From assembly GCA_001823695.1 (NCBI GenBank), contig MHVD01000002.1, forward strand, positions 15,215-79,214: 64,000 bases of DNA, in the 5' to 3' direction. Shown here one piece after another: positions 29,469 through 61,371 of this stretch. How positions within the stretch are numbered: position 1 is the stretch's first letter; the number at the start of each line of letters is the position of its first letter. This DNA is from Candidatus Zambryskibacteria bacterium RIFCSPHIGHO2_01_FULL_43_25 (GTDB taxonomy: Bacteria > Patescibacteriota > Minisyncoccia > Phycocordibacterales > Zambryskibacteraceae). Both the position numbers and the translations under genes were made by a program. The notes beneath the pieces were generated by a model. It made no database searches and had not been told where the DNA came from. It worked only from the letters and a program-made list of their open reading frames with translations.

Positions 29469-31220
29469 TTATTTTCTATTGTTAATTTCTTCTTTGATTT
29501 GGCTGACAAAATCTTCTAGTTTCAAAGAACCGATATTACCTTTGTCTCTGCTTTCAACTGAAACATTTTTGTTTTCAATTTCTTTATCTCCGATAACGAT
29601 CCAGTAAGGGATTTTTTGCATCTTAACTCCGCGGACTTTCTTGCCAACGCTCTCATCTGAATTATCCAGTTCTGCCCTGATATTCTCTGCCATTAAGCTT
29701 TTTACCACCATCTGAACGTATTCTCTATGCTTTTCTCCCACTGACAAAACCTTTACCTGCACCGGGGAGAGCCAGATCGGAAACGCCCCAGCGTAATGCT
29801 CAATTAAAAAACCAATAAAACGCTCATGAGTTCCCAAGGGCGCGCGGTGAATGCACACAGGGGTCTTATCCTTTCCGTCTTTGTCGGTGTAAACTAGACC
29901 AAAACGACGAGGTTGGGCGAAATCAACTTGGTTGGTCGCCAATGTAAACTCGCGTCCAATAGCACTCCATACCTGCACATCAATTTTAGGTCCGTAAAAT
30001 GCAGCTTCATTTGGCACTTCAACAAACGGGATCTTGGATTCAATTAGAGTTTTGCGCACCATATCTTCTGTTTTTTTCCATAACTCTGGTTCGTCGACAT
30101 ACTTTTGGCCAAGATGTTTTGGGTCGTGGGTTGAGAAACGCATCAAATATTTTTTTATACCGAAAATCTGAAAGTAATTTATGTACATATCATTAACAGC
30201 TCTGAATTCGCTCGGAAATTGTTCCTCGGTGCAGTACATATGCGCATCATTCATCTGCAAAAATCTAACACGCATAAGCCCGAATAATTCTCCGGATTTC
30301 TCGTTTCGATATACCGTTCCGTATTCTGCGAGCCGCAGGGGCAAGTCGCGGTAGCTTCTCGATTCAGAAGCGAAAATCTTGTGATGATGAGGGCAGTTCA
30401 TTGCTCTGAGATAATACCTGCCGCCCTCGCATTCCATAGGCGGATACATACTTTCCTGGTAATAGGGAAGATGCCCGCTTTTTATGTACATTGATTCTTT
30501 TGCGATATGGGGGGTTCTTACCCTTTTATATCCAGCCTTAAACTCAGTTTCACTTGCCAACTTCTCAAGTTCCTCAATTATGACAGCTCCATTAGGAAGC
30601 CAAAGAGGCAGACCAGGTCCGACGTCGTCATCAAATGTAAAAATTTTCAGTTCTTTGCCAAGTTTCCTGTGATCTCTTTTCTCAGCTTCTTCTTGCTGTT
30701 TTATATAATCTTCAAGTTCTTTTTTATCATTGAAAGCCAATCCGTATATTCGGGTGAGCATTTGGTTTTTTTCATCTCCCCGCCAATAGGCGCCGGCAAT
30801 CTTGTCTAGTTTGAAAGAATCAGGTTTTATGTTTTTTGCGCTTTTTATATGTCCGCCTCGGCAGAGGTCGGTGAATTTACCCGAGGTGTAGAGCGTTATC
30901 TTTTCTCCCTTTCCCGCTATTTCATTGATAAGTTCTTTTTTATAAGGGTTATCTTTGTACAGAATCAGCGCTTCTTCTTGGGTTGTCTCGCGTCCTTCAA
31001 ACTTGTCCCAAGTCTTGAGGATGTCCCTCATTTTTTTCTCAATTACAGGTAATTCGCTGTCAGTTATTTTTCGGTCTTTGAAATCAAAGTCGTAATAAAA
31101 GCCGTTTTCAATCGCCGGCCCTAATGTAGGGAGTGCGTTTGGGTAAACTTCTAAAACAGCCGCAGCAAGCAAGTGGGAAAGGGAATGTCTTAAAACCCCG
31201 ATATCTTCATCTTTAGTCAT
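29469..31220 (-). CDS. thrS: Threonine--tRNA ligase (no N-terminal TGS domain)
   Basis: HSLSHLLAAAVLEVYP editing-domain start, class II core and C-terminal anticodon-binding domain. Confidence 0.9.
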   Translation of the reverse strand: MTKDEDIGVLRHSLSHLLAAAVLEVYPNALPTLGPAIENGFYYDFDFKDRKITDSELPVIEKKMRDILKTWDKFEGRETTQEEALILYKDNPYKKELINEIAGKGEKITLYTSGKFTDLCRGGHIKSAKNIKPDSFKLDKIAGAYWRGDEKNQMLTRIYGLAFNDKKELEDYIKQQEEAEKRDHRKLGKELKIFTFDDDVGPGLPLWLPNGAVIIEELEKLASETEFKAGYKRVRTPHIAKESMYIKSGHLPYYQESMYPPMECEGGRYYLRAMNCPHHHKIFASESRSYRDLPLRLAEYGTVYRNEKSGELFGLMRVRFLQMNDAHMYCTEEQFPSEFRAVNDMYINYFQIFGIKKYLMRFSTHDPKHLGQKYVDEPELWKKTEDMVRKTLIESKIPFVEVPNEAAFYGPKIDVQVWSAIGREFTLATNQVDFAQPRRFGLVYTDKDGKDKTPVCIHRAPLGTHERFIGFLIEHYAGAFPIWLSPVQVKVLSVGEKHREYVQMVVKSLMAENIRAELDNSDESVGKKVRGVKMQKIPYWIVIGDKEIENKNVSVESRDKGNIGSLKLEDFVSQIKEEINNRK

Positions 31221-31278: not shown

Positions 31279-31308
31279 TTGACAGAATTATATAAAATAT
31301 GCTATAAT
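31279..31308 (+). promoter_or_regulatory. Consensus sigma70 promoter TTGACA-18-TATAAT with no downstream same-strand gene
   Basis: ttgacagaattatataaaatatgctataat. Confidence 0.5.
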
Positions 31309-31336
31309 TAAACATAGATAAGGGACTGTTAAATGA

Positions 31337-31385
31337 CCCGCCTAGTATCCGTCAGCTGACGGAGAACGGCGGGTTTCGTTTTTTC
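31337..31385 (+). terminator. Two-tier hairpin plus U-tract ending the short transcript from the orphan promoter
   Basis: cccgcc...ccgtcagctgacgg...ggcggg followed by tttcgttttttt. It encloses an 8-codon ORF (31333-31359, MTRLVSVS) preceded by AAGGGA. Confidence 0.45.
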
Positions 31386-31394
31386 ACATTTACG

Positions 31395-31436
31395 AACAAC
31401 GCATAAAAAACGCTATAGCGTTTTTTATGCGTTGTT
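31395..31436. repeat. 42-bp perfect palindrome (family member 1) between convergent transcription units
   Basis: aacaacgcataaaaaacgcta|tagcgttttttatgcgttgtt. Confidence 0.8.
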
Positions 31437-31444
31437 GTGCGGTT

Positions 31445-34400
31445 TTAAAAAATTCTTATTTTCTCAGCGATTATTGAAATAGAATTGTTTCTCTTTGAAA
31501 CAGAGCCGACGACTACCACGCAATTTTCGGGTTTTATTACCTCTTTAAATTCATTTAGAACTCTGGGAAAAACCACTACTTCCATAGAATCTGATAAATC
31601 AGCTATACGAACAAACATCATTTTCTCATTTCCTTTCGTAATTACTTCGCGCGCATCTTCAATAATTCCGGCTACTGTTGCTCGAAGGCCTTCGGGGAAC
31701 TCCTTTTTTATTCTGGCGATATTTACACTCCGTTCTTCAAGTTTACTCTTGTACTGGTTGAGCGGATGGCCTGAAATATAAAGTCCCAAGAGTTCCTTTT
31801 CCCATACCAGTTTGTCTTTTTCTGTCGCTGGTTTTGATTTGGATAGGGTCAACCTTGAAGTTTGTGAATTTTCAGACATCAAGCCAAACAAAGAATCTTG
31901 AGCTTTTACACCTTGGGCGCTTTCTTTGTGAAAAGTAAGCAAAGTTTCGAGATTTTGGAGCATCTGTCCTCTTTCGCCAAACTCTTCCAGCGCTCCCGCT
32001 TTGATAAGCGATTCAAGAGATTTTTTGTTCAAGTTTCTGTCTCCCACCCTCTCCAAGAAATCGGCAAGAGATGTGTATTTTCCGCCTTCTTTTCTTTCTC
32101 TAACAATTGATTGCGAAATTCCCTCGCCGAAGTTCTTTATCGTAGCAAGCCCGAATCTGATTTTGTCGGGGCTTCCAGCTCCTCTGACTACCGAAAACCC
32201 GCGGAAACTTTCATTGGCGCTTGGCGGCATAACAGGAATATTCATTCTTTTGCACTCTGATATTATCTCACCGACTTTTTCTACATCTCCGGAGTCGGCA
32301 GTGAGTACGGCTGACATATAGATAGCAGGGTAATTCGCTTTAAAATAAGCGGTTTGATAAGCAACCCGCCCATAACTTGCGGCGTGTGCTTTGTTGAATC
32401 CATAAGCGGCAAATGGTTCTATCCAAGTCCAGAGCTCCACAGCTTTTTTGTGTGGCCAATTGCTGTGGGAGATACAACCGTCTATAAATTTTTCCTTTTG
32501 TGCCACCATTTCTTTAGGAATTTTCTTGCCGACCGCCTTTCTGAATTTGTCCACCTCTCCCCAGGTATATCCGGCTATGTCTTTGGCAATAAGAAGAAGG
32601 TCGTCTTGATAAACAAGGACCCCGTATGTTCTCTCAAGTATTGGTGCAAGTGCCATATCAAGATATTTTATTAAAGATGGGTTGTGCTTCCTCTTTATAA
32701 ATTCTGGAATAAACTGCATTGGTCCCGGGCGATAAAGAGCAACCATCGCATTTATATCATGGATCGTTGAAGGTTTGAGTTCCATCAGGAATTTCGTCAT
32801 TGCTTCACCGTTGAGCTGGAACAATCCTTCTGTTTCTCCGCGGGCAAGTATGCTGAATGTTTTCGGATCATCAAGCGGGATATTTTCTGGGTCAATGAGT
32901 TTTTCTTCGATTGCCCTTATGCGGTCTACGGTATCAGCAAGTATTGATAGATTTTTTAGTCCCAGAAAGTCAAATTTAAGCAAGCCAGCATCTTCTACGC
33001 TGTACATATCGTATTGAGTAATGATTTTCCTTTCACCTTTTGGGTCGTACTGGAGCGGAACATAATCGGTAATATCAGTCGGCGAGATAATCACGCCAGC
33101 TGCGTGGACGGAAATGTGCCTGGCGCACCCCTCAATTTTCCTCGCCATGTCTATTACTTCTCTGACGTCGTCCTCCTTTTGGTATATATCTTTAAGCTCG
33201 GGGATCATCTCAAAAGCCCTATCAATTGTCATAGGGAAGCCTTGGGAACCAAAGGGCATAAGTCTGGCGATACGGTCGCCCGTGCTGTAAGGATAACCCA
33301 GCGCTCTAGCAACGTCTCTCACTGCTCCCCGGGCCATCATAGTTCCAAATGTTCCGATCTGGGCAACCTTATCTGCGCCATATTTTTGCCTGGCGTATTC
33401 AATCATTTCGTCACGCCTGTTGTCAGCGAAATCCATATCAATATCTGGGGGTGACGGTCTTTCCGGGTTGAGAAATCGTTCAAACGGCAAACCGTATTCT
33501 ATAGGATTTACATTTGTAATCCCGGCAAGATAAGTGACCATTGACCCGGCAACTGACCCCCTAATGTTTGTGAGGATTCCATTTTCATGCGCATACCTTA
33601 GCAAGTCACCGACAACCAGGAAATATGGAGCATAGCCCTTATCGTTTATGATTTTCAATTCATATTCTATTCTTTCTTCAACTTCTTTGGTTTTTTTCAG
33701 ACCTCTTTTGTCTAGGCCTTCACAAACCAATCGCCTTAATTCTTTGTCCGGGGAAAGACCACTTTCAACTTTGAAATCAGGGAAAACCCAGGAACCGAAT
33801 TTCAACTCGAGATTACAGCTCCCAACTATCTCGTCGACTGACGATAGGGCTTCGGGAATATTTTTAAAAGCTTCAGTCATCTGTTCTCTGTCTCTGAATG
33901 AAAAGTCCTTCTCTTCTTCGTCAAACTCATGTCGCCCCCTGTCGGAATTTGTTTGCACCGACATCAAAGTCTGCCAAGCTTTCTTATCTTCGGGATTTAT
34001 ATAAAAAATATCTTGAGCAGCGACAACCTTTATGTTTTCTTTTTTTGCAAATTCCAAAAGTTCTTTCATAAGTTCAGCATGACCGGGAATTTCTGGGTGG
34101 TAAGTTAATTCAATGAAGAAATTTTTTCTACCAAAAATATTTTTGTACCGGTCAGCAATATCAGTCGCTTTTTTTCTATCCTTGTTGCGCAGAGCTTTGG
34201 CGATTTCTCCGGAGTTGGAAGGTGATATGGCCGTTAGTCCTTCGGAGTATTTCTCCAGTAGCTCTTTATCAATTCTCGGCTTGTAATAAAATCCTTCCAA
34301 GTGCGATAAGCTGGTGAGTTTTATTAGGTTTTTATAACCTGTCTCGTCCCGCGCCAACAATATCAATCTGAATCTTGTATTGTCTACACCGGCCTGCTTG

Positions 34401-34630
34401 TCGTGTCTTGTTCGCAACGCAACATAAGCATCCACTCCTATTATCGGTTTGATGTCGTTCTTTTTGCACTCCTGGAAAAATTCAATCGCTCCGTATAGAT
34501 TCCCGTTGTCAGTCAAAGCCAGCGCTTTCATGCCAAATTTTTTTGCCGCAGAAACCAATTCCGGTATTTTAGGCAAAGCGCCCAAGAGACTATAGTGGCT
34601 ATGGGTATGGAGATGAGAGAAGGAAGACAT
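31445..34630 (-). CDS. dnaE: DNA polymerase III alpha subunit
   Basis: PHP domain HLHTHSHYSLLGA, polymerase core and OB domain. Start taken at the internal ATG (MSSFSHLH...). Confidence 0.9.
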   Translation of the reverse strand: MSSFSHLHTHSHYSLLGALPKIPELVSAAKKFGMKALALTDNGNLYGAIEFFQECKKNDIKPIIGVDAYVALRTRHDKQAGVDNTRFRLILLARDETGYKNLIKLTSLSHLEGFYYKPRIDKELLEKYSEGLTAISPSNSGEIAKALRNKDRKKATDIADRYKNIFGRKNFFIELTYHPEIPGHAELMKELLEFAKKENIKVVAAQDIFYINPEDKKAWQTLMSVQTNSDRGRHEFDEEEKDFSFRDREQMTEAFKNIPEALSSVDEIVGSCNLELKFGSWVFPDFKVESGLSPDKELRRLVCEGLDKRGLKKTKEVEERIEYELKIINDKGYAPYFLVVGDLLRYAHENGILTNIRGSVAGSMVTYLAGITNVNPIEYGLPFERFLNPERPSPPDIDMDFADNRRDEMIEYARQKYGADKVAQIGTFGTMMARGAVRDVARALGYPYSTGDRIARLMPFGSQGFPMTIDRAFEMIPELKDIYQKEDDVREVIDMARKIEGCARHISVHAAGVIISPTDITDYVPLQYDPKGERKIITQYDMYSVEDAGLLKFDFLGLKNLSILADTVDRIRAIEEKLIDPENIPLDDPKTFSILARGETEGLFQLNGEAMTKFLMELKPSTIHDINAMVALYRPGPMQFIPEFIKRKHNPSLIKYLDMALAPILERTYGVLVYQDDLLLIAKDIAGYTWGEVDKFRKAVGKKIPKEMVAQKEKFIDGCISHSNWPHKKAVELWTWIEPFAAYGFNKAHAASYGRVAYQTAYFKANYPAIYMSAVLTADSGDVEKVGEIISECKRMNIPVMPPSANESFRGFSVVRGAGSPDKIRFGLATIKNFGEGISQSIVRERKEGGKYTSLADFLERVGDRNLNKKSLESLIKAGALEEFGERGQMLQNLETLLTFHKESAQGVKAQDSLFGLMSENSQTSRLTLSKSKPATEKDKLVWEKELLGLYISGHPLNQYKSKLEERSVNIARIKKEFPEGLRATVAGIIEDAREVITKGNEKMMFVRIADLSDSMEVVVFPRVLNEFKEVIKPENCVVVVGSVSKRNNSISIIAEKIRIF

Positions 34631-34723
34631 GCCCAGATATAATATCAGGTAAAGCGGCGGAAACAGCGCTTCTTCGTGGAAATCTAATTGACAGAGAGAG
34701 CTTATGGCATCTATCATGTATGT

Positions 34724-38385: not shown

Positions 38386-40638
38386 ATGTTGTTAAAATCT
38401 GTAGAATTATCCGGTTTTAAATCATTCGCTAAAAAAAGCGCATTCCAATTTACTTCCGCCATCTCAGCGATAGTAGGTCCTAACGGTTCCGGCAAAAGCA
38501 ATGTAGCCGAAGCTTTTCGTTTCGTTTTGGGAGAGCAATCAATAAAGTCACTGCGCGGCAAGCGCGGAGAAGATTTAATTTGGAACGGAGGCAAAGATGC
38601 GCCAAGATCAAATAGGGCAGATGTGAAAGTCATCTTTGATAACAGCAGGCGATTCCTGAATATTGATTTTGATGAAGTGTCAATTGAACGTGTCGTGAAC
38701 AGGGACTCAAGCAATGAGTATTTTATCAATGGCAGCCAAGTTCGGCTCAAAGATATAGTAGAACTTTTAGCTCATGCCCATATCGGTTCCTCCGGACACC
38801 ACATTATTTCTCAAGGCGAGGCAGACAGAATCTTGGGCAGTTCAATGAAGGAGCGCAGGGAAATGATTGAAGATGCGCTAGGTCTAAAGATATATCAATA
38901 CAAAAGACAGGAGAGTGAGCGCAAGCTTGAGAAAACCTTAAGCAATCTTGTCCAAGTTGAATCCTTAAGAAGAGAAGTGGCTCCCCACTTACGTTTTCTT
39001 AAAAAACAGGTGGAAAAGCTGGAAAGAATTGAACAGTTGAAAGAGAATCTCAAAGTCAAGGCGTTAGAATATCTAAAACGGGAGGAAATTTATCTTTCAA
39101 ACGAGGAGAAGAGCATTGAGGGAGCAAGAAAACCCCTTGAAGACGAGTTCAAAACTTGCGGAGAGGAGCTCAATTCGGCTAAGGAAGCTCTTGAGAAATC
39201 ATCAGGCAAGGATAAAAAAAGCGATGAGCTTATCTCTCTTGAGAAAAAAATCAAAGAAGCGAGGGAAAAATCTGAAGGAATAATACAAAAGGTAGGGAAA
39301 CTTGAAGGCCGTATTGTTGCGGAAGAGGAGATTTTAAATAAACAGAAGGAGATCGCCCTCTCTAGCGAACATAAGACAGTGCCTTTGGTTGAGGTTGAAA
39401 ATCTGGTTAAGGAAGCGGAAGGAAGCATTGAAGAAGCTGAAAAAGCGGGAGGCCTTGAAACTTTCAAAGCAGTGCTCTTCTCGCTTCGGCAGATGCTTCG
39501 TTCCTTTATTGAAAACAAAAAAGGCCAGACTGACAGCAGGATTATACAGGATACAGAACGAAAGATTCAGGAGTTTAAACATCTAAAAGACGAAGCCGAT
39601 AATAATCTGGCGGGTATAAAAAAGATCGAAGAGGAGCTGTACCGTCAGTACGAAAGTCTAAGAAAGGAGATTGAAACGGCCAAAGATTCAAGCCGAGATG
39701 CGGAAAAGAAAATGTTTGAAATAATGTCGCGGCAGAAAGAGATAAGTGCGGAACTCAATGTTTTGAGAGAAAGAGCCAGGCGTCTGACGTCGGAGAGTGA
39801 GGAGTTTAAGCGCGAAATTGCCGAAATTGCCGCTCTGGCCGGCAGAGAAATACTTGAGTACAAATCTTTCAGCGTTGATTCTTCTGATGAAAATAGAGAG
39901 AAACAGGAAGAGAGAAAAAGAGAAATAGAAAAATTTAAAATCCGCCTTGAGGATTCTGGACTTTTGGGCGGCGAAGACGTAATGAAGGAATTTAAGGAAA
40001 CCAGCGAAAGAGACTCTTTCTTGGAAAAAGAGATAAATGACTTGAGGGATTCGGCCGAATCCCTCAAGAAACTAATTGTTGACTTAGGCGAACAGCTTGA
40101 CCGCGAGTTTAAGGAGGGAATTGAGAAGATAAATAAGGAATTTCAGAACCTGTTTGCTCTAATGTTTAACGGTGGCTCGGCTTCCCTTAAGCTTATCAAA
40201 GCGCAAAAAAGGATAAAAAAGGAAACCGATGATCTGGAGCTTCCGACTGATAATGTGGAATCGGAGGAGAAAGAAGAGTTTGAAGAGGGAATTGACATTG
40301 ACGTGGTGCTTCCTAGAAAGAAAATAAAAGGGCTGATGATGCTCTCCGGCGGCGAGAGGGCGCTTACCTCCATAGCGCTTCTCTTCGCGATGTCTCAAGT
40401 CAACCCGCCGCCTTTTATTATTCTTGATGAAACGGATGCGGCGCTTGATGAAGCCAACTCCAAAAAATACGGCGATATGATAGAGGATCTCTCAAAATCT
40501 TCCCAGCTTATTCTCATAACCCACAACAGGGAAACAATGTCGCGCGCCGGCGTTATCTACGGAGTAACAATGGATTCAGGCGGCGTATCAAAAACTCTTT
40601 CAATCCAATTTGACGAGGCCACAGCAGTCGCAAAATAA
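38386..40638 (+). CDS. smc: SMC-family chromosome segregation ATPase, short (750 aa) form
   Basis: Walker A GPNGSGKSN, coiled-coil middle, LSGGERALTSIAL signature, Walker B ILDETDAALD. Canonical rnc-smc neighbourhood. Confidence 0.75.
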   Translation: MLLKSVELSGFKSFAKKSAFQFTSAISAIVGPNGSGKSNVAEAFRFVLGEQSIKSLRGKRGEDLIWNGGKDAPRSNRADVKVIFDNSRRFLNIDFDEVSIERVVNRDSSNEYFINGSQVRLKDIVELLAHAHIGSSGHHIISQGEADRILGSSMKERREMIEDALGLKIYQYKRQESERKLEKTLSNLVQVESLRREVAPHLRFLKKQVEKLERIEQLKENLKVKALEYLKREEIYLSNEEKSIEGARKPLEDEFKTCGEELNSAKEALEKSSGKDKKSDELISLEKKIKEAREKSEGIIQKVGKLEGRIVAEEEILNKQKEIALSSEHKTVPLVEVENLVKEAEGSIEEAEKAGGLETFKAVLFSLRQMLRSFIENKKGQTDSRIIQDTERKIQEFKHLKDEADNNLAGIKKIEEELYRQYESLRKEIETAKDSSRDAEKKMFEIMSRQKEISAELNVLRERARRLTSESEEFKREIAEIAALAGREILEYKSFSVDSSDENREKQEERKREIEKFKIRLEDSGLLGGEDVMKEFKETSERDSFLEKEINDLRDSAESLKKLIVDLGEQLDREFKEGIEKINKEFQNLFALMFNGGSASLKLIKAQKRIKKETDDLELPTDNVESEEKEEFEEGIDIDVVLPRKKIKGLMMLSGGERALTSIALLFAMSQVNPPPFIILDETDAALDEANSKKYGDMIEDLSKSSQLILITHNRETMSRAGVIYGVTMDSGGVSKTLSIQFDEATAVAK

Positions 40639-40765
40639 TTTGTGACACGCTATTAGGCATAAGCGATAAGCGTTGTGAAATAGCATTTTGCAATGGGGGC
40701 TTATAGTTTACCGTTTTCTCACTCGTTTAAATATTGTGTAGTAATAGCTATTTGGTTTAGTTTAT

Positions 40766-40805
40766 CAACTATATCCCTTATTCGCGCGAATAAGGGATAT
40801 AGTTG
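40766..40805. repeat. 40-bp perfect palindrome with GCGC centre
   Basis: caactatatcccttattcgc|gcgaataagggatatagttg. Confidence 0.85.
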
Positions 40806-40885
40806 GGAGTGGTTTTAAATTAAAGTAAATTAAGGCGAAAACATCTAGATATAATTGTATTTATCAGCTGATGGAAACATTTCGT

Positions 40886-40923
40886 ATTCTATTTGATATT
40901 TTGCGCAAAATATCAAATAGAAT
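40886..40923. repeat. 38-bp perfect palindrome with GCGC centre
   Basis: attctatttgatattttgc|gcaaaatatcaaatagaat. Confidence 0.85.
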
Positions 40924-40969
40924 GCTGGATTAGCGAGTAATAGTTAACGTTAAATTTTTTAAGCACAAA

Positions 40970-41000
40970 CCCTGACGTAACAAGTCCCGTTACGTCAGGG
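40970..41000 (-). terminator. Intrinsic terminator (GACGTAAC hairpin family) for the minus-strand GC-rich gene
   Basis: ccctgacgtaac-loop-gttacgtcaggg; on the minus strand it is followed by tttgtgctt. Confidence 0.6.
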
Positions 41001-59500: not shown

Positions 59501-59596
59501 ATATACTCCCTGTCGTTTTGGGACAAGAGGTGTGGGGATCGCAATTGCGAGTATTGCCGCTTAAGAGGGTCAATAAGCGCCGCCGAGCTTCACTGA
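56585..59596 (+). CDS. UvrD/PcrA-like SF1 helicase fused to a C-terminal PD-(D/E)xK (Cas4/AddB-like, 4-Cys) nuclease
   Basis: Walker A AGPGTGKTS, motif II ADEHQD. C-terminal RVVDYKTGKP nuclease motif and Cys cluster C...C-x4-C-x2-C. Confidence 0.7.
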   Translation: MSEISFENAYKKLNKEQREAVDTVEGPVMVIAGPGTGKTSILTLRIANILRRTDTSPGSILALTFTESGVHSMRRKLVEIIGPAAYRVGIFTFHGFCNEVMRRFPDCFERILGGHLATEVDQIKVVENIIRDGKFHHLKLFGNNFFYARPALQSIRSLKRENITPKEFSGILAEKQKEFDSFPNLYHERGQYKGRLKGRYAELQKKIEKNRELSSLYLSYEKALKKDNLYDYEDMIIEVVLALEKNNDLLLMLEEEYQYILADEHQDANNAQNKILLLLSSFHKSPNLFIVGDEKQAIYRFQGASLENFLYFKKKFKDAQVIRLPINYRSTQKILDASHTLIMKAGDSNHSLRRRLIAKNKKLGRAIKFYEFESADAEPLFLITDIEKKIESGVTPSDIAVLFRDNNDAVPIVQVMEKTDIPFLVLSSDDVLEDSLIRQYIALLKAVNNFGNDDYLSRVLFAEFLSIAPLDAYRINKYAHTRRLGVSAVLESRNELARSGVTDKIKFKKLYSDMSRWSKVAKNDGLLSSAEKIARESGFIDYLMSQKNSVSNFEKIDALFRQMRSIVETHRDYTLADFIEYISVLENHSIRMEIPYRPVFKTGVHLMTAHRSKGLEFKYVYIVGAYDGHWGNRRAVVHFHLPITGKPLIGFDEDEDERRLFYVALTRAKDEVVITSSKWSKDNKPRLPSRFVEEIDMKFLEKVSPVPEKELSKLKEGLIHKTPQGGAGVDDAEYLRNLFLDQGLSVTAVNNYLECPWKFFFQNLIRVPKNPEKHQLYGTAVHEALKYFFDKYKDGYNPTLKDLKDWFSIAVSRKPLSQNDFAEALDRGGKALAGYFKKYNKLWPRAIINELAIAGVFIPIDGGKKILLRGILDKVEFISGSEVRVVDYKTGKPRSRNDILGKTKGSKGNIGRQLDFYNVLLQDYENGKYRMKEGMIDFVEPNDQGNYRQEKFEANGQDAEELKNLIKKIASEIYSLSFWDKRCGDRNCEYCRLRGSISAAELH

Positions 59597-60303
59597 ATGC
59601 CTTGGTTGAGAAGAGCCGCGTCAATGATGGTTTTCATCACATCATAGGGCTGGCCGCCTTCTATGGCGATTCTTTCTCCGCTTCTGGTGACAAGTATGCT
59701 ATAAGGAGTTCCTCCGGCTCCGGCCAATACAGCGTCTTGGAAGTCTTCTTGGATTTTGTTTGCATATTTGCCGCTTGAAAGACAGGATTCAAAATCGGAA
59801 ACTTTAATTCCAACCTCGTCCGCTATTTTGGGCAACTCGCTAAGATCAAGTCCGTTATTTGACGGGGTCTTTGCAAATAATGCGTCAATATAGACCCAGA
59901 ATTCTTCTTTGCCTCCAAGCTCTGCCGCGCACTCCGTAGCTTCCGCTTCTTTTCTGGCTTTGGAATGCAGACTGTCAATGGGGAAGTGGCGATACACCCA
60001 AGCCAGTTTTCCGTCCTTGCCGTACTCATCTATCAGACGGTGCATCGTATTGTGGAAAGTTTTGCAGAAAGGGCACTCCGTATCGGAGTATTCAACTATC
60101 ACGACTGGCGCGTTCGGATTGCCCAATATATGGTCATCCTCGCTCACCGCGCGTATATTTATGCCGCGCACCACGCTGTCATCGTTATTGAATATCTTGG
60201 AATCAGTTTGCCGGTTTGAAAGATAAAACCCAGCACCCACCAAAGCGCCGGCTAGAATGATTGCTACCGGTAGCATAAACGGACTGCCTTTTTGTGTTTC
60301 CAT
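59590..60303 (-). CDS. DsbA-like thiol:disulfide oxidoreductase, membrane-anchored
   Basis: N-terminal TM and CPFC active site within a thioredoxin fold. Confidence 0.65.
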   Translation of the reverse strand: METQKGSPFMLPVAIILAGALVGAGFYLSNRQTDSKIFNNDDSVVRGINIRAVSEDDHILGNPNAPVVIVEYSDTECPFCKTFHNTMHRLIDEYGKDGKLAWVYRHFPIDSLHSKARKEAEATECAAELGGKEEFWVYIDALFAKTPSNNGLDLSELPKIADEVGIKVSDFESCLSSGKYANKIQEDFQDAVLAGAGGTPYSILVTRSGERIAIEGGQPYDVMKTIIDAALLNQGIQ

Positions 60304-60434
60304 GTTGGAAACTAAGTATACTTCCTAAACTCACAACTAACAACCTGCTACCCACAGCTTGTAACTTATAACTTGTGTCTAACAATCGATAAGCTTATGA
60401 CGGACAACCAATAATTGACGAATAATCGACGAAA

Positions 60435-60486
60435 AACAAAACAACACATAAAAACCGCTATAGCGGTTTTTATGTGTTGTTTTGTT
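60435..60486. repeat. 52-bp perfect palindrome (family member 2) in a divergent promoter region
   Basis: aacaaaacaacacataaaaaccgcta|tagcggtttttatgtgttgttttgtt. It shares the core with the 31395-31436 palindrome, differing by compensatory substitutions. Confidence 0.8.
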
Positions 60487-60570
60487 ATGCGATATACATG
60501 GTGTGTATTATGTTAGAAAATGGTATATACAATACCCGAAAAAGTGGCGGAAATATGCTAACCTACACTC

Positions 60571-61371
60571 ATGTCTTTTTTTGAAGCGACAATCCTAGGC
60601 CTGGTTCAGGGCCTTGCCGAGTTCATACCAGTTTCATCTTCCGGCCATCTTATCTTGGCCAGAGAATTTTTCAGCCTCGCCAGTTTTGAAGATTTGGCGG
60701 TTGACGCCGTGCTTCAGCTGGCGACCGCCCTGGCCGTACTTTTATATTTCCGCCGCGATGTCCTGTCTCTGCTTCGGACTTTTTTCAGATGGATCGGACG
60801 AAAACCCGTCTCGGATACAGATTCAAAAATGTTATTAGCTATAATTATTGGCACTATACCAACAGTGGTATTCGGGCTTCTTCTTGAGAATTATATGGAA
60901 ACAGTTTTCAGGAACGCATCCTTGGTAGCGTTGGCACTTCTAGCCGGAAGCGCGTTGATGATGTTTGCCGAAAAGCGCTTCAATAGCTCTGCCGTTAAAG
61001 AAATTTCGGCCAAGATGGGATTCTTCGTTGGTCTTTTTCAGTCTCTGGCTTTGATACCCGGGGTATCGCGTTCCGGTGCAACGATTTCCGGAGGGTTATT
61101 AAATGGTTTAAGCAGGGTAGAAGCGGCGCGTTTTAGCTTTCTTCTGTCTTTGCCCATAATCTTGGGTTCAGGAATTAAAAAACTTCTTGAACTTAATATA
61201 GGAGGCTCTCTCTCCGATATCGGTTTGCCACTTCTCCTTGGGGCAGTAGTTGCTTTCGTATCAGGTTTTTGGGCTATAAAATTCCTTATAAATTATCTGA
61301 AAACCAGAACTCTCAATGTATTTATCATTTACAGAATTGTTCTGGCTGTTTTGATTTTTATTCTTTTGTAA
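60571..61371 (+). CDS. uppP: Undecaprenyl-diphosphatase
   Basis: GLVQGLAEFIPVSSSGH... and ...PGVSRSGATISGG BacA motifs. Confidence 0.85.
   Translation: MSFFEATILGLVQGLAEFIPVSSSGHLILAREFFSLASFEDLAVDAVLQLATALAVLLYFRRDVLSLLRTFFRWIGRKPVSDTDSKMLLAIIIGTIPTVVFGLLLENYMETVFRNASLVALALLAGSALMMFAEKRFNSSAVKEISAKMGFFVGLFQSLALIPGVSRSGATISGGLLNGLSRVEAARFSFLLSLPIILGSGIKKLLELNIGGSLSDIGLPLLLGAVVAFVSGFWAIKFLINYLKTRTLNVFIIYRIVLAVLIFILL

What the first reader, a model, noticed from the sequence alone, without database searches (positions are those of the whole stretch)
31395..31436. Family of very long perfect palindromes with compensatory substitutions (copies at 31395-31436 and 60435-60486)
Both copies share the core caacNcataaaaaNcgcta|tagcgNtttttatgNgttg. 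The two positions that differ (g/a and a/c on the left arm) are matched by complementary changes on the right arm. That pattern is evidence of selection on the hairpin or cruciform structure rather than on sequence. One copy lies between convergent genes (terminator-like). The other lies in a divergent promoter region between the dsbA-like gene and uppP, so function is not simply termination. It could be a miniature mobile palindromic element or a protein-binding site.
Basis: seen in the sequence. Interest (0 to 1): 0.5.

Follow-up and report, generated by a model that had tools for sequence, protein, structure and literature searches.

The report
Palindromic repeat tied to PaaX-like protein
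The two long perfect palindromes are real copies of a 42-bp repeat from a large, apparently undescribed family in tiny groundwater (CPR) bacteria; in related genomes this family brackets the gene of a small PaaX-like DNA-binding protein, so they are most likely scattered binding sites for that protein rather than ordinary terminators.

Summary
The window holds perfect palindromes at 31395-31436 (21-nt arms) and 60435-60486 (26-nt arms). They share a 42-bp unit and differ at two positions, each mirrored on the other arm. The window comes from a Candidatus Zambryskibacteria (Parcubacteria/CPR) groundwater genome.

Collection scans found about 40 further distinct palindromes, mostly in groundwater and sediment metagenomes. 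All share the centre A-run-CGCTA|TAGCG-T-run. All are perfect over 12-32 nt per arm, although the search pattern fixed only 11-14 nt.

The key result concerns a ~190-aa gene. In 12 independent loci this gene is bracketed on both sides by its own variant of the palindrome. The protein has a winged helix plus a Cas2-like domain, and its best structural match is E. coli PaaX. The upstream copy sits at the gene's promoter.

Solo copies, like the two here, lie in intergenic spacers of unrelated housekeeping genes. They occur in tandem, convergent and divergent contexts at background frequencies. They are absent from the orthologous spacers of the nearest relatives.

Best reading: these are dispersed, REP-like cognate sites of a PaaX-like dimer. 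Their perfect symmetry is kept by DNA-level template switching rather than by selection on an RNA hairpin. The cognate gene of this genome was not found, and no binding has been tested.

The parts
31395..31436 (.). Copy 1: perfect 42-bp palindrome (21-nt arms), AACAACGCATAAAAAACGCTA|TAGCGTTTTTTATGCGTTGTT. This is the full unit shared with copy 2.
   Evidence: Identical in a second assembly of the species. As RNA it folds at -27 to -28 kcal/mol on either strand.
60435..60486 (.). Copy 2: perfect 52-bp palindrome (26-nt arms). It is the same 42-bp unit with two mirrored substitutions plus a locus-specific, still mirrored 5-nt extension per arm. Imperfect complementarity continues over 60430-60491.
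   Evidence: Identical in NCBI, ENA and JGI assemblies. RNA fold -36 to -38 kcal/mol.
31411..31420 (.). Central motif CGCTATAGCG of copy 1, the family-defining centre, flanked by A6/T6 runs. The outer CAT/ATG blocks are at 31402-31404 and 31427-31429.
   Evidence: The same centre occurs in about 70 distinct palindromes from the scans. A CTATAG core also occurs in protein-ascertained loci.
60456..60465 (.). Central motif CGCTATAGCG of copy 2. The outer CAT/ATG blocks are at 60447-60449 and 60472-60474.
   Evidence: The closest relative is the copy downstream of the PaaX-like gene in L104 (TAACAACACATAAAATACGCTA|), with 2 mirrored differences in 21.
31445..34717 (-). Context: dnaE (DNA polymerase III alpha). 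Its stop codon lies 8 nt from copy 1.
29469..31220 (-). Context: thrS. Its start lies 174 nt downstream of copy 1 on the minus strand. The dnaE-thrS spacer is 224 nt here and 68 nt, with no palindrome, in the nearest relative.
59590..60303 (-). Context: DsbA-like thioredoxin-fold gene, divergent from uppP.
60571..61371 (+). Context: uppP (BacA). The dsbA-uppP spacer is 267 nt from the longest ORF start, or 294 nt from the annotated 228-aa dsbA start. In the nearest relative it is 97 nt with no palindrome.

Best explanation
The two palindromes are solo copies of a 42-bp repeat. The repeat belongs to a family of CTATAG-centred palindromic DNA sites found in Parcubacteria (CPR bacteria). The site architecture is (T/C)ACAT, an A/T-rich spacer, CGCTA|TAGCG, an A/T-rich spacer, then ATGT(A/G).

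Inferred: these are the cognate DNA sites of a small homodimeric PaaX-like protein (winged helix plus Cas2-like dimerisation domain).

Shown in related genomes: the gene for that protein is bracketed by two direct copies of its own variant of the site. The upstream copy lies over the promoter, with its centre 17-39 nt before the start codon and a TATAAT box in between. That position fits an autoregulatory operator.

Shown: in some lineages, including this Zambryskibacteria species, extra solo copies are scattered through intergenic spacers of unrelated housekeeping genes, whatever the gene orientation, and are not kept at orthologous positions. They therefore behave like REP-type dispersed repeats rather than like a conserved regulon.

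Inferred: the exact two-fold symmetry, including the mirrored substitutions and the mirrored locus-specific arm ends, is generated and maintained at the DNA level by intrastrand template switching or fold-back copying during replication. A change in one arm is copied to the other.

Inferred: when a copy is transcribed it will also fold into a very stable hairpin in either direction. It may therefore act secondarily as a transcript barrier or stabiliser, for example copy 1 right after dnaE.
For: The family is real. The genome scan with the 18-base centre gave 42 stretches. Seven of the 13 sites with perfect arms of 15 nt or more come from Patescibacteria. The metagenome scan gave 54 stretches, 57 sites and about 42 distinct sites. 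All are perfect for 12-32 nt per arm although only 11-14 nt were fixed.

Gene association. In 8 pattern-ascertained loci a 178-197-aa gene has a family copy 12-30 nt from its start and from its stop. In 4 loci fetched through the protein alone (L108, L114, L118, L119) the same arrangement recurs, with paralogue-specific variants.

Protein identity. Pfam PaaX_M scores E 1e-20, with partial TIGR02277 PaaX and weak Cas2 matches. The AF2 model (pLDDT 77.5) shows a winged helix plus a ferredoxin-like domain. The top Foldseek hits are E. coli PaaX 8A39 and Rv0674. At least 2,745 homologues were found, named Zambryskibacteria or Parcubacteria where named.

Promoter position. TATAAT-like boxes lie between the upstream copy and the ATG in 5 of 8 loci.

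Dispersal. Of 22 classifiable solos, 13 are tandem, 5 convergent and 4 divergent, against background intergenic pairs of 187/46/40. Their neighbours include RecG, aminoacyl-tRNA synthetases, GatB, Obg, RF, L19 and an ABC transporter. Both window copies are missing from the orthologous spacers of relatives with conserved synteny. The PaaX-like unit has a different neighbourhood in every locus, once inside the r-protein operon.

DNA-level symmetry. There are no wobble or mismatched pairs inside the arms, and the centre is self-complementary. Complementarity drops to 25% just outside the arms. In 95 kb of one sample, every CTATAG site is either 20/20 perfect or random. The template-switch mechanism is established for quasipalindromes (PMC7202029) and has been proposed to keep inverted repeats perfect (PMC5941160).
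Against: The PaaX-like gene of this particular species was not found. It is not in the 64-kb window, not in the 10 kb beyond it, and not among the top 120 homologues. The link for these two copies therefore rests on family resemblance: the closest relative, L104, differs at 2 mirrored positions in 21.

No binding experiment exists. Only 2 copies occur in 74 kb of this genome, which is a low density for a REP-like repeat.

The perfect-palindrome set is ascertained with a symmetric pattern. In protein-ascertained loci 7 of 8 flanking copies are imperfect.

The G-poor 5' arm and G/T-rich 3' arm, and the position of copy 1 8 nt after a stop codon, would also fit a terminator-like RNA role. Gene calls in the metagenome loci come from a simple ORF heuristic.
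Confidence: 0.5

Rival explanations
1. They are bidirectional transcription terminators or RNA-stabilising hairpins. Selection acts on the RNA stem, and compensatory changes preserve pairing.
For: The RNA hairpins are very stable, at -28 and -38 kcal/mol with z-scores of -6 to -10. They have an A-run/T-run around a GC clamp and U/G-rich 3' arms on both strands. Copy 1 lies 8 nt after the dnaE stop. Copy 2 scores as terminator-like on the minus strand. Downstream copies of the PaaX-like gene often lie between convergent genes. Other terminators in the window have similar AAACAAAA...TTTTGTTT flanks.
Against: Copy 1 fails the terminator scan on both strands. Copy 2 passes only on a strand where no gene ends. 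The T-run lies inside the stem, and the GC part of the stem is only 3-4 bp. Solos are not depleted in divergent spacers, with 4 of 22 observed against about 3 expected. The 'loop' is conserved and self-complementary, and the arms contain no G-U pairs, neither of which RNA selection requires. The family is tightly associated with a DNA-binding protein gene, including a copy placed at its promoter.
Confidence: 0.2
2. They are ordinary operators of a transcription-factor regulon. The PaaX-like repressor would control dnaE/thrS and dsbA/uppP expression through these sites, and the sites would be kept by selection for binding.
For: The gene-flanking copy sits at the promoter of the PaaX-like gene. 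The protein is a PaaX-type winged-helix repressor by sequence and fold. Copy 2 lies in a divergent promoter region and overlaps a weak -35-like hexamer for uppP. The centre and outer blocks are conserved.
Against: The neighbours of solos have no functional coherence. Solos occur in convergent spacers and overlap gene 3' ends. The sites are absent from orthologous promoters in the nearest relatives. Within a genome, copies share 36-42 bp including positions that vary freely between genomes, which points to common descent or concerted evolution rather than to binding constraint alone. A second copy always follows the gene.
Confidence: 0.12
3. They are classical miniature transposable elements (MITE or REP/REPIN type) moved by a transposase encoded elsewhere. 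On this view the association with the PaaX-like gene is secondary.
For: The copies are interspersed and strictly extragenic, with genome-specific subfamilies and several copies per contig, for example 4 in one 39-kb contig. They are absent from orthologous sites. A Y1_Tnp gene lies 1.9 kb from one PaaX-like unit.
Against: There are no target-site duplications. There is no unpaired GTAG/CGTC tag as in REPs (PMC3733652). The gene bracketed by the repeats is PaaX-like, not a Y1 transposase, in 12 of 12 loci, and the Y1_Tnp gene in L114 is not flanked by them. The locus-specific arm ends are themselves mirrored, which simple insertion does not explain.
Confidence: 0.1
4. It is a chance resemblance of two hairpins, or an assembly artefact in which the assembler symmetrised an imperfect repeat.
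For: De Bruijn assemblers handle palindromes poorly, and two Logan contigs end at the centre of copy 2.
Against: There were zero matches in 100 shuffles. The sequence is identical in NCBI, ENA and JGI assemblies made with different assemblers, with unique flanks on both sides. Dozens of related perfect palindromes occur in unrelated projects.
Confidence: 0.02

Closest known systems
REP / REPIN elements with their RAYT gene (gamma-proteobacteria and others)
   Same: Short extragenic palindromic repeats are dispersed over a genome, with genome-specific families. A single small protein gene is bracketed by copies of its own repeat family (PMC3116915, PMC3733652). Here the PaaX-like gene is bracketed in 12 loci and solos are scattered in spacers.
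   Different: The bracketed protein is a winged-helix/Cas2-like PaaX relative, not a Y1 HUH transposase. The repeats are perfect, loop-less palindromes with a conserved centre and no unpaired GTAG/CGTC tag. Copy number is low, at 2 per 74 kb here. They are not biased towards tandem or convergent spacers.
E. coli PaaX repressor and its operator
   Same: The N-terminal winged helix plus central Cas2-like domain match (PF20803, TIGR02277 partial, best fold match 8A39). The site sits at the promoter of the gene, as expected for a repressor. From my own knowledge, not checked here, PaaX protects a long region with inverted half-sites.
   Different: The CPR protein is about 190 aa and lacks the PaaX C-terminal domain. 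No paa genes are nearby. The site also follows the gene and occurs as dispersed solos. The ligand and the binding are unknown.
Quasipalindrome correction by replication template switching (Ripley model; Lovett laboratory)
   Same: This mechanism turns imperfect inverted repeats into perfect ones (PMC7202029) and has been proposed to keep bacterial inverted repeats perfect over evolution (PMC5941160). It predicts mirrored substitutions, no wobble pairs and a self-complementary centre, all of which are seen.
   Different: Here it would act on 40-64-bp palindromes across a whole repeat family and would also have to extend arms into flanking DNA. That has not been shown for this mechanism.
Bidirectional intrinsic terminators
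   Same: An A-tract, a hairpin and a T-tract that are symmetric on both strands, with stable RNA folds and frequent positions just after stop codons.
   Different: The GC stem is only 3-4 bp, the T-tract is buried in a 21-26-bp stem, and there is no T-run after the full hairpin of copy 1. Copies are present in divergent promoter regions.

Membership tests
REP/REPIN-RAYT | A 20-40-bp imperfect palindrome carrying an unpaired GTAG or CGTC tag at one end (PMC3733652) | tested here: not met
   Both copies and all scan hits are symmetric to their ends. The arms start with AACAAC... and the like, with no GTAG/CGTC tag.
REP/REPIN-RAYT | The repeat family flanks a Y1 (HUH) RAYT transposase gene | tested here: not met
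   The gene bracketed by the repeats is PaaX_M/winged-helix in 12 loci. The only Y1_Tnp gene seen (L114 4933-5451) has no family copy next to it. Window ORFs other than the four neighbours and the helicase were not scanned for Y1_Tnp.
REP/REPIN-RAYT | Many extragenic copies per genome | tested here: inconclusive
   The copies are strictly extragenic, but only 2 occur in 74 kb of this genome. There are up to 4 in a 39-kb related contig. The whole genome is not available to the tools.
Intrinsic (Rho-independent) terminator | A G+C-rich stem, a 3-8-nt loop, then a T-run directly after the stem, at the 3' end of a transcription unit | tested here: not met
   Copy 1 gives no terminator-like site on either strand. 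Copy 2 qualifies only on the minus strand, where it lies upstream of dsbA and not after a gene. Solos are not depleted in divergent spacers.
PaaX-family repressor operator | The site lies at the promoter of a gene encoding, or controlled by, a PaaX-family winged-helix protein | tested here: inconclusive
   This is met in 12 related loci, where the centre lies 17-74 nt before the ATG of the PaaX-like gene. In the window no PaaX-like gene is present and the promoter overlap is only a weak consensus match.
PaaX-family repressor operator | Specific binding by the protein, relieved by its ligand | not testable with these tools
   This needs EMSA, footprinting or DAP-seq with a purified protein such as P0241 or the cognate of this species.
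PaaX protein family (for the associated protein) | N-terminal winged helix, central Cas2-like domain and C-terminal helical domain | tested here: inconclusive
   The first two domains are present (PF20803 E 1e-20; the AF2 model; Foldseek 8A39 E 8.5e-5 and 3KFW). The C-terminal domain is absent (about 190 aa against 305-316) and the TIGR02277 score is far below its cut-off. The protein is therefore a PaaX-like two-domain relative, not an equivalog.
MITE | Terminal inverted repeats flanked by target-site duplications | tested here: not met
   Adjacent direct repeats occur at chance level (n=2: 4 against 3 expected; n of 4 or more: 0) in 48 distinct sites.

The most novel reading that the evidence does not exclude
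This is a REP/RAYT-like, vertically persisting 'replicator' system of CPR bacteria. In it, a winged-helix/Cas2-like (PaaX-like) protein, not a HUH transposase, recognises a CTATAG-centred palindrome, brackets its own gene with it and spreads or maintains solo copies. New copies would be made as exact fold-back (hairpin-templated) inverted duplications that capture a few bases of flanking DNA. That would be a previously undescribed way of generating and moving palindromic DNA.
Probability: 0.2. Interest if true: 0.85.

Novelty: new variant of a known kind. Interest (0 to 1): 0.6.

Why it matters
CPR/Patescibacteria make up a large share of bacterial diversity, yet almost nothing is known about their regulation, chromosome organisation or mobile DNA.

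This work gives a concrete, testable protein-DNA pair. The protein is a very common small protein, with at least 2,745 homologues, often mis-annotated as 'CRISPR-associated Cas2'. The DNA is a precisely defined site of about 36-42 bp.

It also gives a natural system in which long perfect palindromes persist and stay perfect. That bears on how palindromes are tolerated and symmetrised during replication.

Finally, it is a caution against reading mirrored substitutions in a DNA palindrome as proof of selection on RNA structure.

Tried and rejected
- Rfam at gathering level over the whole window, and at E<=1 around copy 1, gave only a tRNA elsewhere and sub-threshold hairpin look-alikes.
- The exact 24-mer core is absent from 185,579 representative genomes, and the window's own genome is not in that collection.
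- Viral contigs hold neither the central motif nor the PaaX-like protein.
- The palindromes are absent from the orthologous spacers in the nearest relatives (about 75% amino-acid identity). Those spacers are too diverged to define insertion junctions.
- I looked for a decayed PaaX-like gene next to the window copies and in the 680-nt obg-gatB spacer of L094, and found none.
- I tried to find the cognate PaaX-like gene of this species through accession ranges and two look-ups. P0327 and P0244 belong to other species.
- Extending the census 10 kb to the right found no further copy. The look-up for the left side failed.
- No target-site duplications were found.
- Literature searches for the motif, for CPR palindromic repeats and for PaaX/Cas2-like proteins in Parcubacteria found nothing relevant.
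- From memory only, I considered and dropped dif/Xer sites (the half-site spacing is wrong), parS, NBS and NrdR boxes (different sequences), protelomerase sites, and integron attC sites (conserved ends rather than a conserved centre).

Full report
OBSERVATION. The window contains two loop-less perfect palindromes, at 31395-31436 (21-nt arms) and 60435-60486 (26-nt arms; 31 nt at 94%). Local alignment of the two spacers shows that what they share is exactly a 42-bp unit, AACAAC[G/A]CATAAAAA[A/C]CGCTA|TAGCG[T/G]TTTTTATG[C/T]GTTGTT. The two differences, at 31401/60446 and 31410/60455, are mirrored on the other arm. The inner 24 specified bases occur twice in the window and never in 100 shuffles, even with three mismatches allowed. 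Copy 2 is identical in NCBI, ENA and JGI assemblies. Two Logan contigs stop exactly at its centre, which is an assembler break. Copy 1 is identical in another assembly. The feature is real.

ORGANISM AND CONTEXT. The window matches contig MHVY01000016.1 of GCA_001823895.1. Its ThrRS is 100% identical to that of Candidatus Zambryskibacteria bacterium RIFCSPHIGHO2_01_FULL_43_25, a Parcubacteria/CPR bacterium from Rifle groundwater, and the window GC is 43.7%.

Copy 1 lies 8 nt after the stop of dnaE and 174 nt before thrS, both on the minus strand. It therefore sits in a tandem spacer, not between convergent protein genes. A perfect consensus promoter on the plus strand (31279-31308), followed by a hairpin and T-run, may give a small convergent transcript. 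No Rfam family matches it.

Copy 2 lies between the divergent dsbA-like gene and uppP. The terminator scan finds nothing at copy 1. At copy 2 it finds a site only on the minus strand, where no gene ends. As RNA both copies would fold at -28 and -38 kcal/mol.

COMPARATIVE LOCI. Synteny is conserved in the nearest available relatives (73-75% amino-acid identity): dnaE-thrS, and helicase-dsbA-uppP...hisS. Their spacers are short, 68 and 97 nt against 224 and 267-294 nt here, and carry no palindrome. Both copies therefore sit in lineage-specific extra intergenic DNA.

THE FAMILY. A scan of 185,579 representative genomes with AAAANCGCTATAGCGNTTTT gave 42 stretches, none with the extended core of this window. 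Seven of the 13 sites with perfect arms of 15 nt or more are from Patescibacteria, including a Zambryskibacteria genome (L043) and a contig with two copies 640 nt apart (L047).

A metagenome scan with ATAAAAN{0,3}CGCTATAGCGN{0,3}TTTTAT gave 54 stretches and 57 sites, about 42 of them distinct, mostly from Rifle, Hainich and similar samples. Every site is a perfect palindrome of 12-32 nt per arm (median about 22), although the pattern fixed only 11-14 nt.

Copies fall into subfamilies that share 17-20 nt per arm, for example TGTATATAAAATACGCTA|, AATTACTTTATAAAACGCTA| and CACATAAAATCCGCTA|. Two subfamilies occur on a single 39-kb contig. Beyond the shared part, the locus-specific bases are still mirrored for 2-14 nt. 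Immediately outside the perfect arms, complementarity is at chance (122/480 = 25%). There are no target-site duplications. In 95 kb from one sample, every CTATAG site is either 20/20 complementary or random, with no decayed copies. The 5' arms are G-poor (A 549, T 191, C 130, G 47).

THE KEY ASSOCIATION. Five contigs carried two copies 626-670 nt apart, and in each the pair brackets a 178-197-aa gene of one family. A tblastn search found the same gene next to family copies in 8 distinct loci. Inspection showed a copy on both sides in all eight, sometimes imperfect, 12-30 nt from the start and the stop. The two copies of a locus are the same variant.

The protein matches Pfam PaaX_M, the 'PaaX central Cas2-like domain' (E about 1e-20). 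It partly matches TIGR02277 PaaX across the winged helix and the Cas2-like domain, and weakly matches Cas2. An AlphaFold model (pLDDT 77.5) shows a winged helix followed by a ferredoxin-like beta-alpha-beta-alpha-beta domain. The best PDB fold matches are E. coli PaaX (8A39) and Rv0674 (3KFW).

The family has at least 2,745 members at E<=1e-10. They are annotated variously as Cas2, PaaX family or hypothetical, and where named they come from Zambryskibacteria and other Parcubacteria.

Four loci were fetched through the protein alone, which makes them unbiased with respect to the palindrome. All four have a CTATAG-centred inverted repeat whose centre is 17-74 nt before the start codon. Three have a copy after the stop, and the fourth has a copy with a degenerate centre. 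Seven of these eight copies are imperfect. The two paralogues of one genome have different variants, CGCTATAGCG and AACTATAGTT. A second semi-conserved block, (T/C)ACAT, lies 12-16 nt from the centre. In the window it is the CAT at 31402-31404 and 60447-60449.

TATAAT-like boxes sit between the upstream copy and the ATG in five of eight loci, so the site overlaps the promoter. The unit has a different neighbourhood in each locus: gyrB|pheS, obg|MYG1, TrmB-like|poly(A) polymerase, and once between rplE and rpsH inside the ribosomal-protein operon.

SOLO COPIES. With a simple ORF-based gene call, 22 classifiable solos split 13 tandem, 5 convergent and 4 divergent. This is indistinguishable from the frequencies of intergenic regions in the same loci (187/46/40). 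Nearly all copies fall in the 13% of sequence that is intergenic. Their neighbours are unrelated housekeeping genes: RecG, several aminoacyl-tRNA synthetases, GatB, Obg, a release factor, L19, an ABC transporter, PGI and others.

In this genome only two copies occur in 74 kb. The window has no PaaX-like gene, and I could not locate the one belonging to this species. The closest relative of copy 2 is the copy just after the PaaX-like gene of L104, TAACAACACATAAAATACGCTA|, with two mirrored differences in 21.

INTERPRETATION. Three things are shown:
- There is a real, large family.
- It is tightly and repeatedly associated with a PaaX-like winged-helix gene.
- Solos lie at orientation-independent, non-conserved intergenic positions.

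Four things are inferred:
- The palindrome is the binding site of the dimeric PaaX-like protein. A two-fold symmetric site fits a homodimer, the upstream copy is placed like an autoregulatory operator, and the conserved blocks are one to one-and-a-half helical turns from the centre.
- Solos are REP-like dispersed copies rather than a conserved regulon.
- The symmetry is produced at the DNA level.
- Any RNA hairpin or terminator effect is secondary.

However, three features are not what RNA selection needs: the conserved and self-complementary 'loop', the total lack of wobble pairs, and the mirroring of locus-specific arm ends. They are what quasipalindrome template switching yields (PMC7202029). 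That process has been proposed to keep bacterial inverted repeats perfect (PMC5941160).

COMPARISON WITH KNOWN SYSTEMS. The arrangement works like REP/REPIN-RAYT, in which a small gene is bracketed by its own dispersed palindromic repeat (PMC3116915, PMC3733652). It fails the membership features: there is no GTAG/CGTC tag, the protein is not a Y1 transposase, and the palindromes are perfect. It also fails the intrinsic-terminator and MITE criteria. The protein is a two-domain relative of PaaX, not an equivalog. I found no publication describing this site family or its link to the PaaX-like proteins of CPR bacteria. That is not proof that none exists.

CAVEATS.
- The perfect-palindrome sample was drawn with a symmetric pattern.
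- Most metagenome contigs have no taxonomy.
- Gene calls in those loci are heuristic.
- The collections do not contain the whole genome of this species.
- No experiment supports binding, mobility or termination.

VERDICT. The best explanation, at confidence 0.5, is that these are solo members of a CPR-wide family of PaaX-like-protein-associated palindromic sites that behave as dispersed repeats and are kept symmetric by DNA-level copying. I rate it a new variant of a known kind, with interest 0.6.

Noticed in passing
window 31279-31386 (+): A perfect sigma-70 consensus promoter (TTGACA-18-TGcTATAAT, 12/12) is followed by a hairpin at 31338-31376 and a T-run. This is a candidate ~70-nt small RNA convergent with dnaE, immediately before copy 1. 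It has no Rfam family and is absent from the 68-nt spacer of the nearest relative.
   Followed up: partly
window 40640-41000 (palindromes 40766-40805 and 40886-40923): A non-coding stretch of about 600 nt follows the SMC-like ORF. It carries two unrelated long perfect palindromes (20- and 19-nt arms, GCGC centres) plus several shorter ones. Their function is unknown.
   Followed up: no
window 40041-40068: A 28-bp perfect palindrome (CTTGAGGGATTCGG|CCGAATCCCTCAAG) lies inside the SMC-like coding sequence.
   Followed up: no
L057:2068, L100:854, L102:3795 and 8801, L106:6315: A second, unrelated family of long perfect palindromes (ACATTC[C/T]AACATTCTN|, 16-24-nt arms) occurs in the same kind of metagenome contigs. 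In 429 kb of fetched loci there are 19 perfect palindromes of 13 nt or more per arm besides the targeted family, so these genomes are generally rich in loop-less palindromes.
   Followed up: partly
L119:9937-11070: A PaaX-like gene with its flanking inverted repeats sits inside the ribosomal-protein operon between rplE (L5) and rpsH (S8). This points to insertion of the unit.
   Followed up: partly
L114:4933-5451 (also L115-L117): A Y1_Tnp (IS200/RAYT-type) gene lies 1.9 kb from a PaaX-like unit. It is not flanked by the CTATAG palindromes.
   Followed up: partly
L003 and L005 (Logan contigs), position 1 = window 60457: Two independent short-read contigs end exactly at the centre of copy 2. 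Perfect palindromes fragment de Bruijn assemblies, so such elements are probably under-represented in CPR MAGs.
   Followed up: yes
family-wide: NCBI annotation names many of the PaaX-like proteins 'CRISPR-associated endonuclease Cas2', although they are winged-helix/PaaX_M proteins with no CRISPR context in the loci examined. This looks like systematic mis-annotation.
   Followed up: partly
L094:9106-9787 compared with L114:1428-1431: obg and gatB overlap by 4 nt in L114. In L094 they are separated by about 680 nt of non-coding DNA that ends in a solo palindrome. No remnant of a PaaX-like gene was detectable there.
   Followed up: yes
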